Shown here: positions 5,176 through 23,128 of the stretch, in pieces
How the letters are laid out: every line of letters starts with the position of its first letter
How positions within the stretch are numbered: the stretch's first letter is position 1
Sequence record: PX104379.1
Direction: 5' to 3' (one strand)
Length of the DNA: 64,000 nucleotides
Source: a phage
Program-made: the position numbers and the translations under genes
The notes under the pieces: model-generated
What the model was told of the DNA's origin: nothing
Database searches by the model: none
The model's input: only the letters and a program-made list of their open reading frames with translations

Positions 5176-6114
5176 TTATTTAAATTGTTCAGTAACGTCT
5201 TCAACTACTTCGTATTGGCAGGTACGCATTTTAGCATCGTTGTAATCAATCGGAATTGATACTACATCGCGTGGATGTACTTTAACTTTTACAACTCGGC
5301 TGGTTGAACCACCGAAGTGACGAATATAAGATTTAGAACACACATGCAGACCACGAGAACAAGTTTGTGTATCATCGTCATTCACACGAGTACGTGGCAT
5401 TTTAACTACTTTACCAGGACTGTTATCAAAGGTGTTTGAGTGACAGTCAAAGTAATTGCTGCGAACTACTTTCCAAGCATAGAAGTAACCATCTTCTGTA
5501 ATTTCAATATCGTTTGCTACCAAGAAATCAAAGAGTCGAGATACCGCTTTTTGGCTTGGGTTTTCCAGCAGATTTTCCAAGAACGGAAAATAAAATTCAA
5601 AGTTTTCGCCTTTTTCCATCGAGTCAAGAATACGATCAACCAAACCAGACCGCAATTCGATATTTTGATAGAACAAGCTTCCACCTTCAATTCGAACATC
5701 GCCGGAAATATATTTTTCAACAGCACGGCGAACATTAATTTTTTGTGCAGCTTCTTCCAGCTTATCCGCTACAAGCAGATTAAGAATTTCCTGGAAGTTT
5801 GAATGAGTATTAGGAGTTGCGTTATAAGTTACACCGTCAACAGTAATTGAAATGAATTTTTTAGAAGCATTCCAAATAATATCAGATTTAGCAACTGGAG
5901 CAATAACTGCATCGCTATTAACTTTAACTGTAATATCACCGCTAATAGTAACTTTAGAGCGTTTAGCTTCTTCAGCATTTTTCAAAACACGACGGATTGT
6001 GTCAACCGATACACCTTGCCAATCAGCCAATTCCTGTTGGGTGTAATTACCACTTGAATACAGTTTAACAATTTCAGCTTGTTCGTTTTTGGTCAGGCAT
6101 TTAATATTGTACAT
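5176..6114 (-). CDS. rIIB: RIIB lysis inhibition/exclusion protein
   Basis: 312 aa as T4 RIIB; directly follows rIIA. Confidence 0.85.
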   Translation of the reverse strand: MYNIKCLTKNEQAEIVKLYSSGNYTQQELADWQGVSVDTIRRVLKNAEEAKRSKVTISGDITVKVNSDAVIAPVAKSDIIWNASKKFISITVDGVTYNATPNTHSNFQEILNLLVADKLEEAAQKINVRRAVEKYISGDVRIEGGSLFYQNIELRSGLVDRILDSMEKGENFEFYFPFLENLLENPSQKAVSRLFDFLVANDIEITEDGYFYAWKVVRSNYFDCHSNTFDNSPGKVVKMPRTRVNDDDTQTCSRGLHVCSKSYIRHFGGSTSRVVKVKVHPRDVVSIPIDYNDAKMRTCQYEVVEDVTEQFK

Positions 6115-19701: not shown

Positions 19702-20184
19702 CTAGCGATAAAAACCAAAATGACGATTAGCTTCAGCAATCTTTCTTTCTTCTTCGGACATTCTCCAGCGTAGTCCAACATCAAAATGAGCCCAGACCAT
19801 CTTAACAAATGCATTTATATCTTTAATATCTTCAATAATGAATGTTTTACTTTTAGAAGGCTGACTCGCTAAATTAAGTGCTAATTTAACGTTATCATCT
19901 TCAAACAGGTCAAAAAGACCATATTCATGAGCTCTTTTATAGCCTTTAATAGTTAAAGCTTCGGAAGAAGAAAACGGTGAATCAGTATTTTGCAAAATAT
20001 CTTCAGTATGCTTTATAATTAGAATAATATTTTCTGGATATTTTCTTTCTTTTATATCTTTAATTAAAAAATCCGGATTTTCTGCTAAAGGAATAATTAA
20101 TGAGCATTTTTTATCAAGTGTATTTACTGATTTACCTTCTTTAGACATAAATTCTATTGAATATAGTTTTGCTACTTCAATCAT
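19702..20184 (-). CDS. hypothetical protein (160 aa; Mrh-sized)
   Basis: Size and position correspond to T4 mrh. Confidence 0.45.
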
Positions 20185-20337: not shown

Positions 20338-20541
20338 TCATGATTTATCACCATAGATGTCTCTCATCAATTTAAGCGCTGAGCGTTCTAATTTCTTTTC
20401 TTTCTCAGCACTAATCATTGATTTCATCCATTCTTCCGATTCGTTCTGCATTTCTTTATTTGCCTGTTCAACCCAACCATCATCAATATACATTGAGTTT
20501 GGTCTATTGAACCATTCAAACATTTTCTTCAGAACTTTCAT
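20338..20541 (-). CDS. hypothetical protein (67 aa)
   Basis: ORF track. Confidence 0.45.
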
Positions 20542-21013
20542 TTGTTTTACCTAAAACAATAGTAGGATTATCATCAAATTCATGAATTTTGAGTAAATTT
20601 GGATTTAAACTATTCCATACAGAAGAAATAAAGTATGATAAAGCATCTTCACTCACAATTATAAATTTATTTCCTTTATCTATTTTCCAACTATATACTG
20701 AATCATATGAATAGAAAGATAAAGGTTTATCATTATATTTTTCTGTGTTAACATTAATGTATTCGGATTTAGTAAATGCTTCAATTGCTCTAAATGGAAT
20801 ATTTGGTACAGTTTCAATAATACCAATCTTTTTAAGTTTTATTTCAGCATCTTCTGGAACTGGCATTGAAACGAAATTTTCTACGAGATACATTGGGTCA
20901 CAATAACCCTTATCAATCATTACGGCTACAGTAATTGGAACATCTTTAGCAAACGACATGTTATTACTGCTAATATACATTTCAAACAAAATCGCTTCCA
21001 TAATTTTCCTCAA
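20516..21013 (-). CDS. hypothetical protein (165 aa)
   Basis: ORF track. Confidence 0.5.
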
Positions 21014-21342
21014 TCACAAGATGTAGATGAACAACCAGAATCACAAGAACTTCCACATGAATCGCCTGCCCATACATGAACAGGAACATTCGTATCATAT
21101 GAATCAGAACTAGACTGTGTATTAGATGATGTAGTAGGTACTGACCAGCGCCAAGGATTTTTATAATATTCTTGGGCTTCTTCATAAGTCATAGTGACTG
21201 CTTCTACTGTTCCATCTCCCATATAAACATACTCAACTACAGTTAAAGGAAGGTAGTCATTTGAAATAGGAACTACACCTTCCCCAGGAGTCGTAGAGAA
21301 AAAATCCGTAAAGAAACTTTTAAACCAATTAAAGATAAACAT
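21010..21342 (-). CDS. hypothetical protein with Cys/Ser-rich C-terminal tail (110 aa)
   Basis: Ends ...[20 protein letters not shown]; 4-nt overlap with the downstream gene. Confidence 0.5.
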
Positions 21343-21548
21343 TACAAAAAGCCTCTTTTGAATTCAACTTGTTTATCGCCATAATCATATCGAATCTCTG
21401 CATTAAATTCAACAGAACCATCTGCGTACATCATAAATGAATGCACAACAACTTCTGTAGACCATGGTTGTAGTTCATATTTCTTCATTACATGCCGTGA
21501 AATGATAATATCTAAATCTTCATTTGGTTTAATCCAACGATTTAACAT
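21342..21548 (-). CDS. hypothetical protein (68 aa)
   Basis: ORF track; RBS AGAGGAGAG. Confidence 0.5.
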   Translation of the reverse strand: MLNRWIKPNEDLDIIISRHVMKKYELQPWSTEVVVHSFMMYADGSVEFNAEIRYDYGDKQVEFKRGFL

Positions 21549-21574: not shown

Positions 21575-21604
21575 ATTATACCATACTCATTTTGATATGT
21601 AAAC
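21575..21604 (-). promoter_or_regulatory. T4-type early promoter
   Basis: Minus strand GTTTACAtatcaaaatgagtatggTATAAT. Confidence 0.6.
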
Positions 21605-21619
21605 CATTTAAATGAAAAA

Positions 21620-21637
21620 GGACTCCCGAAGGAGTCC
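21620..21637 (-). terminator. GC hairpin (UUCG loop) after soc
   Basis: ggactcc-cgaa-ggagtcc. Confidence 0.55.
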
Positions 21638-21643
21638 TTGAAT

Positions 21644-21889
21644 TTATTCACCAGTTACTTTCCACAAATCTTCGTTTGCAGTAATCCATTCAGTACGTTG
21701 ATTTTCTTCATATACTGTAGAATATGCTGCTTTTTCTGAAGGGAATGTCTGGTAATGAGCACCAGAAATTTTATGAACGTCAGAATAAAGAGGGAAAGCT
21801 ACGGAAATTTCCTTTCCTTCAATTTTCTTATTTCCATCTAATTTCTGCTCAAATGTTTTGATATTAACATAACCGCGAGTACTAGCCAT
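21644..21889 (-). CDS. soc: Soc small outer capsid protein
   Basis: 81 aa ORF MASTRGYVNIKTFEQKLDGNKK..., recognisable as Soc (T4 Soc ~80 aa). Confidence 0.85.
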   Translation of the reverse strand: MASTRGYVNIKTFEQKLDGNKKIEGKEISVAFPLYSDVHKISGAHYQTFPSEKAAYSTVYEENQRTEWITANEDLWKVTGE

Positions 21890-21957: not shown

Positions 21958-22476
21958 TTAATAACCTCGGTCCTGACGAGCAAAGTTCTCGGCATTTTTC
22001 AGATAATAAAGTTTAAAGATTTCTTCTGCTGTAAGACCAAGACCCTGGAACATATTCAGAACGAAATGAAGAATATCAATCATTTCAAATTTAATTTCTA
22101 ACTGGTCTTGTGGAGACAAATCAGTAATCAGAGTTTCACGACGTTCACCATGCTGCGACTTCCAAGGTTTCCATACAGCAGATGCGTCTTTTTCACCATT
22201 ACTCATACCACCAAGAGAAGTCAGAAGTTCACGGAATTCATCGTCAATATAATCTTTCTGATTACGCAACCAATCAACAACTTCACCGGCAGTAGCCAAG
22301 TCATCAGGATGACGATTATATTCAGGTTTATCTTTAGCTAAACGAATCTGCAGAGATTTCTGCATGTCAAGCATTACCTGCAGCGGGTCTTTTTCATCAC
22401 CGAGAATATCCCAATATTCATTTTGAGCTTTATCAGCGCCTTCGATCAGTTGACTACATTCGTTGAAATGTGGCAT
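21958..22476 (-). CDS. 56: dCTPase/dCTP pyrophosphatase gp56
   Basis: 172 aa versus 171 aa for T4 gp56; MazG-like. Confidence 0.85.
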   Translation of the reverse strand: MPHFNECSQLIEGADKAQNEYWDILGDEKDPLQVMLDMQKSLQIRLAKDKPEYNRHPDDLATAGEVVDWLRNQKDYIDDEFRELLTSLGGMSNGEKDASAVWKPWKSQHGERRETLITDLSPQDQLEIKFEMIDILHFVLNMFQGLGLTAEEIFKLYYLKNAENFARQDRGY

Positions 22477-22477
22477 G

Positions 22478-23128
22478 TTATTTTTCCTTTCTTATGAAGT
22501 TTTCTATCATATGTCTATAGCAGATATTAGGATAACCTGCCTTGACAGCTATTTTATTAAATTTTGTGCGCTTAGGTCTATTATTATAAACCCATAATTC
22601 ATAAAGCGCATCATAACTATTCCATATTTCTCCTCGCCTAGGATTTGGTAAACCATATCGAGGTGAATTTTTACCGCTAAATCTTCCTTTTCGGGCTTTA
22701 CTCATATTAGCCTTGGCTTCATCGGATATAATTTTACCTTTATGAGCTAGACGCATTTTGGCTTTAGTTTCTTCTGGGGTCTTTTTGCCTTTAATCCATG
22801 ACGGCTTGCCATATCTAGGATTATTTTCACCCGAGAAAAGAACAGAGTTTTGGATTTTAAGGGTTTCTATTAATCTACTTGTTAATTTAACACCTTTATT
22901 ATATCGCATTAAATTTACAGCATAATGCAATCCTCTCACATCTGGATATATTTTAGTTAATAATCTATGAGCTATAAAATGCTCACGCGCAGTTAACTCA
23001 ACAAGATTGTTTTTGTCATCTGCTCCTCCTATACATCTAGGAATTATATGATGGCGTTCTTTATATCCGCCAAGATGCCGGCATTTAGCTTTTGTAATTA
23101 AAGCCGAGTAAATTTTTTGGTAATTCAC
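22478..23128 (-). CDS. free-standing HNH homing endonuclease (216 aa), GTG start
   Basis: HNH motif YKERHHIIPRCIGGADDKNNLVELTAREHFIAH; repeated NPRYG(K/L)P modules; GTG start with AAGGA RBS. Confidence 0.75.
   Translation of the reverse strand: MNYQKIYSALITKAKCRHLGGYKERHHIIPRCIGGADDKNNLVELTAREHFIAHRLLTKIYPDVRGLHYAVNLMRYNKGVKLTSRLIETLKIQNSVLFSGENNPRYGKPSWIKGKKTPEETKAKMRLAHKGKIISDEAKANMSKARKGRFSGKNSPRYGLPNPRRGEIWNSYDALYELWVYNNRPKRTKFNKIAVKAGYPNICYRHMIENFIRKEK

What the first reader, a model, noticed from the sequence alone, without database searches (positions are those of the whole stretch)
21010..21342. Protein with a Cys/Ser-rich C-terminal tail
The 110 aa ORF ends ...[20 protein letters not shown], a low-complexity tail with five Cys in 16 residues. 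This could bind metal, form disulfides, or be a modified peptide-like region, which is unusual for an early-region phage gene.
Basis: seen in the sequence. Interest (0 to 1): 0.4.

Follow-up and report, generated by a model that had tools for sequence, protein, structure and literature searches.

The report
T4 mrh.1: conserved Cys-Asp tail
The ORF is a real early gene, the ortholog of phage T4's uncharacterised mrh.1 (Pfam DUF7206), and its Ser/Cys/Asp tail is the best-conserved part of the protein and also occurs on unrelated small proteins of other phage families, but its function is still unknown.

Summary
The ORF at 21010-21342 (minus strand, 110 aa) is real. It is the ortholog of T4 mrh.1 (Pfam DUF7206, 96 bits; phrog_2031). 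It is transcribed from the counterpart of T4 early promoter 14.95 and overlaps mrh.2 by TAATG.

The tail has four Cys (96, 100, 104, 109), not five.

The frame is confirmed. 76% of substitutions fall on codon position 3. Tail codons differ 27 times synonymously and 6 times non-synonymously. The His-rich alternative frame is open only in Tequatrovirus.

Of 121 full-length relatives, 118 end in -Cys-Asp, with a second Cys (mostly S-C-D-S) 4-18 residues upstream. The two extra Cys are specific to the T4 group.

New here: the tail is a portable module. The consensus is a hydrophobic patch, Y-D-S-G, S-S-C-D-S, a Ser/Gly run, then S-C-D-COOH. It occurs on unrelated scaffolds:
- N-terminal transmembrane helices
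- Zn-ribbon-like N-termini, including Salmonella phage 7-11 gp041
- Klebsiella phage BIS47-type proteins
- Methylovulum and Bacillus elements

No structure, named family or paper explains it.

Best guess, inferred only: a disordered thiolate/carboxylate tail, often tethered to the membrane, that binds a metal or a conserved host site.

The gene is already catalogued and its function is open. Interest is moderate.

The parts
21010..21342 (-). mrh.1 coding sequence (110 aa plus TGA), ortholog of T4 mrh.1
   Evidence: ORF. Pfam DUF7206 E=2e-27, 96.3 bits against a cutoff of 25.6. phrog_2031 E=6.7e-34. Annotated Mrh.1 in Yersinia phage PST and in T4 record M30001.
21013..21072 (-). C-terminal tail, residues 91-110 ([20 protein letters not shown]). 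S99-C100-D101-S102 and S108-C109-D110-COOH match the family-wide motif. C96 and C104 are extra Cys specific to the T4 group.
   Evidence: Alignments. 118 of 121 relatives end -CD. 27 synonymous against 6 non-synonymous codon differences. AlphaFold pLDDT below 50.
21202..21234 (-). Conserved core [11 protein letters not shown] (residues 37-47), predicted beta-hairpin
   Evidence: Invariant or nearly invariant columns. Strands 34-40 and 46-52 with pLDDT 77-86.
21298..21342 (-). N-terminal aromatic/Lys-rich helix ([15 protein letters not shown]); possible membrane-binding amphipathic helix
   Evidence: Helix 3-15 in the AlphaFold model. W6, K8 and F15 are conserved. The hydrophobic moment of 0.56 is not exceptional against a background of 0.49 +/- 0.13, so membrane binding is inference only.
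21342..21548 (-). mrh.2 (68 aa); its stop overlaps the mrh.1 start (TAATG), which suggests translational coupling
   Evidence: mrh.2 is absent from several distant relatives that keep mrh.1.
21575..21603 (-). Sigma-70 early promoter (TTTACA-17-TATAAT with TG), counterpart of T4 'early promoter 14.95'
   Evidence: 11 of 12 match. Aligns with the promoter annotated in M30001.
21618..21639 (.). Hairpin terminator after soc, just upstream of the early promoter
   Evidence: 9-bp GC-rich stem followed by a T run.
20516..21001 (-). mrh (rpoH-modulating protein), starting 8 nt after the mrh.1 stop
   Evidence: Pfam T4_MRH E=7.9e-43; annotation.

Best explanation
Shown:
- This is the early gene mrh.1 of a T4-like (Tequatrovirus) phage.
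- The protein has a short N-terminal helix, a small conserved beta-hairpin (EYVYMGDG..E), a variable and mostly disordered linker, and a strictly C-terminal acidic Ser-rich tail.
- The invariant features of the tail are an S-C-D-S unit and a terminal S-C-D with a free carboxylate.
- The tail is under the strongest purifying selection in the protein.
- The tail is a portable module found on unrelated phage proteins.

Inferred:
- The tail is the working end of the protein. It is a flexible thiolate-plus-carboxylate ligand, with two Cys-Asp units per chain and up to five Cys in some lineages.
- It binds a metal ion. This could be a Zn or Fe/Fe-S site bridged between two chains, or the metal or pocket of a conserved bacterial protein.
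- It is usually held at the cytoplasmic face of the inner membrane by an N-terminal amphipathic or transmembrane anchor.
- Expressed early, it would alter a host function during takeover. In T4 it lies in a region that can be deleted in the laboratory.
For: Identity: (DUF7206, synteny soc-mrh.2-mrh.1-mrh, T4 early promoter 14.95).

Selection on the tail:
- Tequatrovirus group: 27 synonymous against 6 non-synonymous codon differences.
- Mosigvirus-type group: the synonymous:non-synonymous ratio is 117:38 in the last 14 codons, against 340:315 in the first 45 codons and 527:358 in the middle.
- The last three codons across 22 genes give 295 synonymous and 57 non-synonymous differences. TGT/TGC, GAT/GAC and all six Ser codons are used.

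Strict C-terminal position: 118 of 121 relatives end -CD, 2 end -CN and 1 ends -CDF. The spacing between the last two Cys varies from 4 to 18 with a mode of 6. That fits a flexible ligand rather than a folded knuckle.

The tail is disordered in both AlphaFold models.

Portability:
- P0128, P0129 and P0130.
- L042, L054, L063, L072, L077 and L082.
- L257 and L320.
- Phage 7-11 gp041.
- These proteins match only the C-terminal half of the DUF7206 model and fall in several other PHROGs.
- The identical 17-residue tail DSYSSCDSSSSFSGSCD sits on three different N-terminal scaffolds: PEi20-type Straboviridae, BIS47-type myophages, and Grimontviridae phage 7-11.

Membrane tether: four independent carriers have a clear N-terminal TM helix (Kyte-Doolittle 19-residue mean 2.7-3.3). 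Net positive charge follows each helix, which predicts that the tail is cytoplasmic.

Cys number varies from 2 to 5 and Ser/Tyr positions are replaced by Cys. This is as expected if thiolates are what matters.

Broad host range (Enterobacteria, Methylovulum, a Bacillus element) points to a universal ligand or target.
Against: - No metal binding, localisation or partner has been measured.
- No Pfam, NCBIfam, PDB-sequence or PDB-fold match to any metal-binding family.
- Variable Cys spacing and only two invariant Cys are atypical for classical zinc fingers.
- The N-terminal helix of Mrh.1 is not more amphipathic than window background.
- Two carriers have Zn-ribbon-like rather than membrane N-termini, so membrane tethering is not universal.
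- The Ser-rich composition could serve another purpose, such as modification or binding.
Confidence: 0.35

Rival explanations
1. The tail is a short linear peptide motif that docks into a conserved host protein without free-metal chemistry. One specific form: it plugs the active site of a membrane-bound zinc protease such as FtsH through a Cys thiolate plus carboxylate, in the manner of a 'cysteine switch'. That would stabilise FtsH substrates such as sigma-32.
For: - Strict requirement for the free C-terminus, and an identical 17-residue tail on three scaffolds, as expected for a recognised peptide.
- Membrane anchors with a cytoplasmic tail.
- In T4 the gene sits in one early operon with mrh and srh, which act on sigma-32 (PMC6070864; PMC8076793).
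- Sigma-32 is handled at the inner membrane, and lambda CIII, a small early protein with an amphipathic helix, inhibits FtsH (PMC3866087, PMC1838920).
Against: - Purely contextual. mrh and srh are not conserved next to mrh.1 in distant relatives, nor next to the other carriers.
- The variable Cys spacing and extra Cys are unusual for a lock-and-key peptide.
- No homology to CIII.
- No complex could be modelled with the tools available.
Confidence: 0.2
2. The two conserved Cys form a redox-active dithiol/disulfide on a flexible tail. This would resemble the C-terminal Cys pair of class Ia ribonucleotide reductase large subunits, and would act as a substrate, decoy or trap for thioredoxin/glutaredoxin systems.
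For: - Two invariant Cys near a flexible acidic C-terminus.
- The tolerated spacing of 4-18 residues is compatible with loop closure by a disulfide.
- The resemblance to the E. coli NrdA tail (...CESGACKI) is recalled from memory and was not tested.
Against: - The invariant Asp after each Cys and the strict terminal Asp have no role in this model.
- Extra Cys accumulate in several lineages.
- No link to nucleotide-metabolism genes beyond loose proximity to gene 56.
Confidence: 0.1
3. The tail is a substrate for covalent modification (RiPP-like cyclisation or thioether formation, siderophore or lipid attachment, phosphorylation of Ser/Tyr) and the modified form is the active species.
For: - The Ser/Cys/Gly/Tyr/Asp composition resembles the cores or tails of microcin B17, class IIb microcins and ranthipeptides (from memory).
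- Strict C-terminal placement.
Against: - No maturase-like gene within several kb in the window or in related loci. The neighbours are soc, gene 56, mrh.2, mrh, srh and modA.x.
- The carriers are in phages of very different gene content and hosts, so a shared dedicated enzyme is unlikely. It would have to be a universal host enzyme, and none is known to me.
Confidence: 0.07
4. The tail has no function of its own. It is a low-complexity spacer, or it is conserved because the DNA overlaps signals for the downstream gene mrh. Alternatively, the real product is the His-rich alternative frame.
For: - The tail-coding DNA ends 8 nt before mrh.
- The +1 frame is open in Tequatrovirus.
- One database entry, P0006, reads into it.
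Against: - Conservation is at the amino-acid level, with abundant synonymous change.
- The tail persists where mrh is absent and on unrelated scaffolds.
- The alternative frame has stops in most non-Tequatrovirus relatives.
Confidence: 0.03

Closest known systems
Phage T4 Mrh.1 (Pfam DUF7206, PHROG 2031)
   Same: Same gene. 110 aa here against 113 aa in T4. Same neighbours (soc, mrh.2, mrh), same early promoter, and the same tail apart from G103S.
   Different: Nothing material: a 3-residue deletion in the Ser/Thr-rich linker. The family has no assigned function, and no paper in the searchable library mentions it.
Tail-bearing small proteins of other phages: Salmonella phage 7-11 gp041, Klebsiella phage vB_KpnM_BIS47-type 134-aa protein (phrog_17348), metagenomic TM-anchored proteins
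   Same: Share the C-terminal module: a hydrophobic patch, a Y/S/D-rich stretch, SSCDS, a Ser/Gly run, then SCD-COOH.
   Different: The N-terminal halves are unrelated (Zn-ribbon-like, TM helix plus coiled coil, other). They lack the EYVYMGDG core and match only the C-terminal half of DUF7206, mostly below threshold.
Inter-chain zinc sites built from two Cys per chain (Rad50 zinc hook, CD4-Lck zinc clasp); from memory
   Same: Two conserved Cys per chain on a flexible element. Coiled coils in some carriers could pair two tails.
   Different: Those use a fixed CxxC or CxC spacing. Here the spacing is 4-18 and each Cys is followed by Asp. No homology, and metal binding is untested.
Lambda CIII, a small early inhibitor of the membrane protease FtsH (PMC1838920)
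   Same: A small early phage protein with an amphipathic helix, linked to sigma-32 biology. Mrh.1 shares an operon with mrh and srh.
   Different: No sequence similarity. CIII has no Cys/Asp tail. No evidence that Mrh.1 touches FtsH.
Ser/Gly/Cys-rich microcin precursors (microcin B17 core, class IIb microcin C-terminal tails); from memory
   Same: Similar composition, and a functionally important C-terminal position.
   Different: Those need dedicated maturases and exporters encoded next to them; none is present here. Mrh.1 has no leader/core layout and is an intracellular early protein.

Membership tests
T4 Mrh.1 / Pfam DUF7206 | Full-length match to the family HMM above the gathering score | tested here: met
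   96.3 bits against a cutoff of 25.6; residues 3-110 on profile positions 1-107. phrog_2031 E=6.7e-34.
T4 Mrh.1 / Pfam DUF7206 | Conserved position downstream of soc (and mrh.2) in the early operon of T4-like phages | tested here: met
   Same order in PST, T4 and 10 IMG/VR loci. Promoter orthologous to T4 PE 14.95.
T4 Mrh.1 / Pfam DUF7206 | N-terminal W/F-L-K helix, EYVYMGDG core, and a C-terminal ...SCDS...SCD end | tested here: met
   Alignments A1, A2 and A6.
Classical zinc fingers / zinc ribbons / metallothioneins | Recognisable family profile or fold, fixed CxxC-type spacing, or high Cys density throughout | tested here: not met
   No Pfam, NCBIfam or PDB hit. Spacing of the conserved Cys varies from 4 to 18. 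Most members have only 2 Cys.
Classical zinc fingers / zinc ribbons / metallothioneins | Stoichiometric metal binding | not testable with these tools
   Needs purified protein (ICP-MS, spectroscopy).
RiPP precursors (lanthipeptide, azole-containing peptide, ranthipeptide, siderophore-microcin) | A maturase (LanB/C/M, YcaO/McbBCD, radical SAM-SPASM, MceIJ-type) encoded next to the precursor | tested here: not met
   The neighbours within about 3 kb are gene 56 dCTPase, soc, mrh.2, mrh, srh, modA.x and an HNH endonuclease. The same holds in related loci.
RiPP precursors (lanthipeptide, azole-containing peptide, ranthipeptide, siderophore-microcin) | Covalently modified mature product | not testable with these tools
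   Needs mass spectrometry of the protein from infected cells.
Peripheral membrane proteins with an amphipathic targeting helix (MinD/FtsA/MreB type) | A terminal helix with a clearly elevated hydrophobic moment and a hydrophobic face flanked by Lys/Arg | tested here: inconclusive
   Predicted helix 3-15 with conserved W6, K8 and F15. The moment of 0.56-0.64 is within about 1 SD of the window background of 0.49 +/- 0.13. Four other tail carriers have true TM helices.
Lambda CIII-like FtsH inhibitors | Sequence homology to CIII, or demonstrated inhibition of FtsH | not tested
   No CIII-related family appeared in the Pfam or PHROG scans.

The most novel reading that the evidence does not exclude
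The tail is a previously undescribed, horizontally shuffled 'warhead'. It consists of a hydrophobic patch, a Y/S/D-rich stretch, S-C-D-S, a Ser/Gly run and S-C-D-COOH. Unrelated virulent phage families (Straboviridae, BIS47-type myophages, Grimontviridae, large uncultured phages) and elements found in Methylovulum and Bacillus genome assemblies graft it onto different anchors (amphipathic helix, TM helix, Zn ribbon). Its purpose would be to attack one universally conserved bacterial target from the cytoplasmic side of the membrane, for example the metal centre of a membrane protease such as FtsH. If so, it would be a new class of host-takeover short linear motif.
Probability: 0.2. Interest if true: 0.7.

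Novelty: already known. Interest (0 to 1): 0.42.

Why it matters
mrh.1 has been in the T4 sequence record since the 1990 GenBank entry M30001 and is present in about 500 sequenced T4-like genomes. Even so, it has no function and no mention in the searchable literature.

This analysis shows that the tail, rather than the annotated domain as a whole, is the conserved and mobile unit. That turns an anonymous DUF into a testable object. A peptide of about 20-40 residues could be synthesised, mutated (Cys, terminal Asp, C-terminal extension) and used as bait.

If the tail targets a universal bacterial factor or sequesters a metal, it would add a new host-takeover mechanism and possibly a small antibacterial peptide lead. 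If it does nothing measurable, it remains one of many dispensable early T4 genes.

Tried and rejected
1. Mis-framing or the His-rich alternative ORF. Rejected: codon-position bias, synonymous variation, and stops in that frame in other lineages.

2. DNA-level conservation caused by the adjacent mrh start. Rejected: the tail persists without mrh and on other scaffolds.

3. Fold or sequence similarity to solved structures. Nothing found. The best Foldseek E-value was 1.6, the model's mean pLDDT is only 60, and the PDB profile searches were empty.

4. NCBIfam: no hit.

5. Host mimicry. One degenerate DNA scan of 185,579 species genomes for ...SCDS-x-SCD-TAA found the motif only in a Methylovulum contig and a Bacillus contig that also appear in the IMG/VR viral collection. 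No enterobacterial chromosomal gene was found. Sensitivity is limited because the pattern fixed the last codons as TGT-GAT-TAA.

6. Tail-only profile search of 5.8 billion proteins. Only 4 weak hits, of which P0130 is convincing. A first attempt failed because the query was too short. The low-complexity tail is also masked in tblastn.

7. Metagenome scan.

8. Hydrophobic-moment test of the N-terminal helix: not significant.

9. Literature searches for 'mrh.1', 'mrh.2' and 'DUF7206' returned nothing relevant. The T4 structural-genomics paper PMC8076793 covers Mrh but not Mrh.1.

Full report
**What is there.** The window is a Tequatrovirus (T4-like) genome segment. The 1.5 kb around the finding is 94-96% identical to many Escherichia, Shigella and Yersinia T4-like phages. 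On the minus strand the order is:
- gene 56 dCTPase (21958-22476)
- soc (21644-21889)
- a hairpin terminator (21618-21639)
- a near-consensus sigma-70 promoter (21603-21575, 11 of 12 matches, with TG)
- mrh.2 (21342-21548)
- the target ORF (21010-21342)
- mrh (20516-21001)
- srh, then the modA.x genes

The promoter aligns with the feature annotated 'early promoter 14.95' in T4 record M30001. The mrh.2 stop and the target's start overlap as TAATG. The target is the ortholog of T4 mrh.1. It matches Pfam DUF7206 end to end (96.3 bits, cutoff 25.6) and phrog_2031. It is labelled Mrh.1 in PST and T4, and T4's own protein ends [20 protein letters not shown]. tblastn finds the gene in 502 phage records, with the low-complexity tail masked by the filter.

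**Checking the observation.** The tail reads [20 protein letters not shown].
- It holds four Cys (96, 100, 104, 109), not five, and these are the only Cys in the protein.
- It is the only ORF of at least 100 aa in the window with 4 or more Cys in 14 residues. Shuffled proteomes give 0.12 such proteins on average.
- The frame is secure. Among seven Tequatrovirus copies, 174 of 228 differences fall on codon position 3. The last 17 codons show 27 synonymous and 6 non-synonymous codon differences.
- Across 22 genes from distant relatives, the last three codons ([S/G]-C-D) differ synonymously 295 times and non-synonymously 57 times. TGT/TGC, GAT/GAC and both Ser codon families are used.
- The His-rich alternative frame is open only in the T4 group and is interrupted in most other relatives.
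- One database protein (P0006) and one metagenomic contig (L007/L019) are frameshifted copies.

**The family.** A profile search of 5.8 billion proteins gave 132 hits, of which the best 120 were listed. An exhaustive HMM search of 1.84 billion cluster representatives gave only 43. Named sources are all T4-like phages of Enterobacterales: Escherichia, Salmonella, Serratia, Edwardsiella, Enterobacter and Cronobacter.
- Conserved parts are an N-terminal M-x-x-[WF]-[LI]-K-x-[LF]-F helix, the motif [13 protein letters not shown], and the tail. The middle is variable in sequence and length.
- Of 121 full-length sequences, 118 end -CD, two end -CN and one ends -CDF.
- The residue before the last Cys is Ser in 110.
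- The penultimate Cys lies in C-D-S in 96.
- The spacing between the two Cys is 4-18, with a mode of 6.
- The T4 group carries two extra Cys at positions that are Ser or Tyr elsewhere. By the S-S-C-D-S motif, the family-wide pair corresponds to C100 and C109. One alignment places C104 instead.
- In the Mosigvirus-type group the tail has the highest synonymous:non-synonymous ratio of the gene: 117:38, against 340:315 in the first 45 codons and 527:358 in the middle.
- mrh.1 keeps its place after soc in all T4-like loci examined, while mrh.2, mrh and srh are each missing from some.

**Structure.** Two AlphaFold runs with deep family alignments give low-confidence models (mean pLDDT 60).
- The window protein shows helix 3-15, a hairpin at 34-40 and 46-52 (the best part, pLDDT 77-86) and helix 53-61. 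Everything from about residue 70 is disordered.
- The Mosigvirus-type protein shows the same hairpin, two linker helices and a disordered tail.
- Foldseek against the PDB, and PDB sequence searches with the family profile and the tail profile, find nothing.

**The new point: the tail is portable.** The exhaustive search and a tail-only profile recovered three proteins that lack the EYVYMGDG core:
- P0128: 97 aa, on an 8.4-kb contig whose DNA polymerase is 66% identical to that of Salmonella phage 7-11.
- P0129: 84 aa, ends -SCDF.
- P0130: 77 aa, with an N-terminal CxC...CxxC zinc-ribbon-like motif.

Degenerate DNA scans for ...C-D-S-x-S-C-D-stop in IMG/VR, metagenomes and species genomes, filtered by translation, added more:
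- Four proteins with an unambiguous N-terminal TM helix: L054 (the same protein as L153, on a Methylovulum miyakonense contig), L063 and L072 from 235-250-kb viral contigs, and L257. Their Kyte-Doolittle 19-residue means are 2.7-3.3, and each helix is followed by net positive charge, so the tail is predicted to be cytoplasmic.
- A 134-aa protein of Klebsiella phage vB_KpnM_BIS47 and relatives, present in 50 phage records and assigned to phrog_17348.
- A 38-aa ORF on a 120-kb element in a Bacillus gaemokensis assembly (L082, the same as L110).
- L042, with a CxxC N-terminus.
- Salmonella phage 7-11 gp041: 79 aa, annotated hypothetical, with a Zn-ribbon-like N-terminus.

The 17-residue end DSYSSCDSSSSFSGSCD is identical in PEi20-type Mrh.1 (P0065, P0088), the BIS47-type protein and 7-11 gp041. 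These are three unrelated N-terminal scaffolds in different phage groups. The proteins hit only the C-terminal half of the DUF7206 model, mostly below threshold, and they belong to several PHROGs, all of unknown function. Most carriers also have a short hydrophobic stretch 10-25 residues before the first SCD.

**What it probably does.**

Shown:
- It is an early gene, with a T4-annotated early promoter.
- It lies in the part of the T4 map (69 to 39, the delta-12 region) that PMC6070864 describes as dispensable.
- It has a small, largely disordered product.
- Its selected and mobile element is a C-terminal peptide with two Cys-Asp units and a free terminal carboxylate.

Inferred:
- The invariant chemistry is thiolate next to carboxylate, presented twice.
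- The motif tolerates variable spacing and extra Cys, needs the free end, occurs in phages of distant hosts and is often tethered to the membrane.
- Together these features fit best with a flexible metal-ligating tail. That could be a site bridged between two chains, or ligation of a metal or pocket in a conserved host protein.
- I give this 0.35.

A non-metal docking motif is the main rival at 0.2. Its specific form is a cysteine-switch-like plug of FtsH. That version is attractive only because of the mrh/srh/sigma-32 neighbourhood and the lambda CIII precedent (PMC1838920, PMC3866087). A redox dithiol (0.1) and a modified peptide (0.07) follow. No maturase is nearby. 'No function' and 'wrong frame' are essentially excluded.

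**Weak points.**
- The amphipathicity of the Mrh.1 N-terminal helix is not statistically exceptional.
- Not all carriers have membrane anchors.
- No experiment of any kind exists in the searchable literature.

**Verdict.** The gene and its tail are already catalogued (T4 mrh.1, DUF7206). The function is unknown. The portable-tail observation is a concrete lead of moderate interest.

Noticed in passing
window 22478-23128 (minus strand): A 216-aa ORF with HNH and NUMOD3 motifs, a homing-endonuclease-like gene next to gene 56. Yersinia phage PST has no such gene at this place.
   Followed up: partly
P0003 (Escherichia phage 235Ecol030PP, 164 aa): A mosaic Mrh.1 that carries the T4-type linker followed by the Mosigvirus-type linker before the T4-type tail. 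This suggests recombination within the gene between the conserved ends.
   Followed up: no
window 19702-20184 (minus strand): modA.3 is a second member of the T4_MRH family (E=9e-38), so the operon holds two Mrh paralogues.
   Followed up: partly
L361 1636-1875 (Salmonella phage 7-11, NC_015938 33826-34065, gp041): A 79-aa hypothetical protein with an N-terminal CxxC...C motif and the tail DSYSSCDSSSSFSGSCD. The tail is identical to that of Klebsiella phage BIS47-type proteins and PEi20-type Mrh.1.
   Followed up: yes
L153 4106-7945 (Methylovulum miyakonense HT12 contig): The TM-anchored tail protein (5694-6077) lies next to a J-domain protein and a possible dUTPase/dCTP-deaminase-type ORF (judged by eye from the translations, not scanned). 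A T4-related phage J-domain protein is known to stabilise sigma-32 (PMC3486835).
   Followed up: no
L110 5245-5361 (Bacillus gaemokensis scaffold, the same as IMG/VR contig L082): A 38-aa ORF, MTTKRRPRPSSPSPSPIIIYDTGSDSGSCDSGSFGSCD, carries the tail motif on a 120-kb element in a Gram-positive genome assembly. Whether it is expressed, or whether the element is a contaminating phage, is unknown.
   Followed up: partly
window 21618-21639: A perfect 9-bp GC-rich hairpin after soc scores as a terminator on both strands. It sits directly upstream of the early promoter for mrh.2 and mrh.1.
   Followed up: partly
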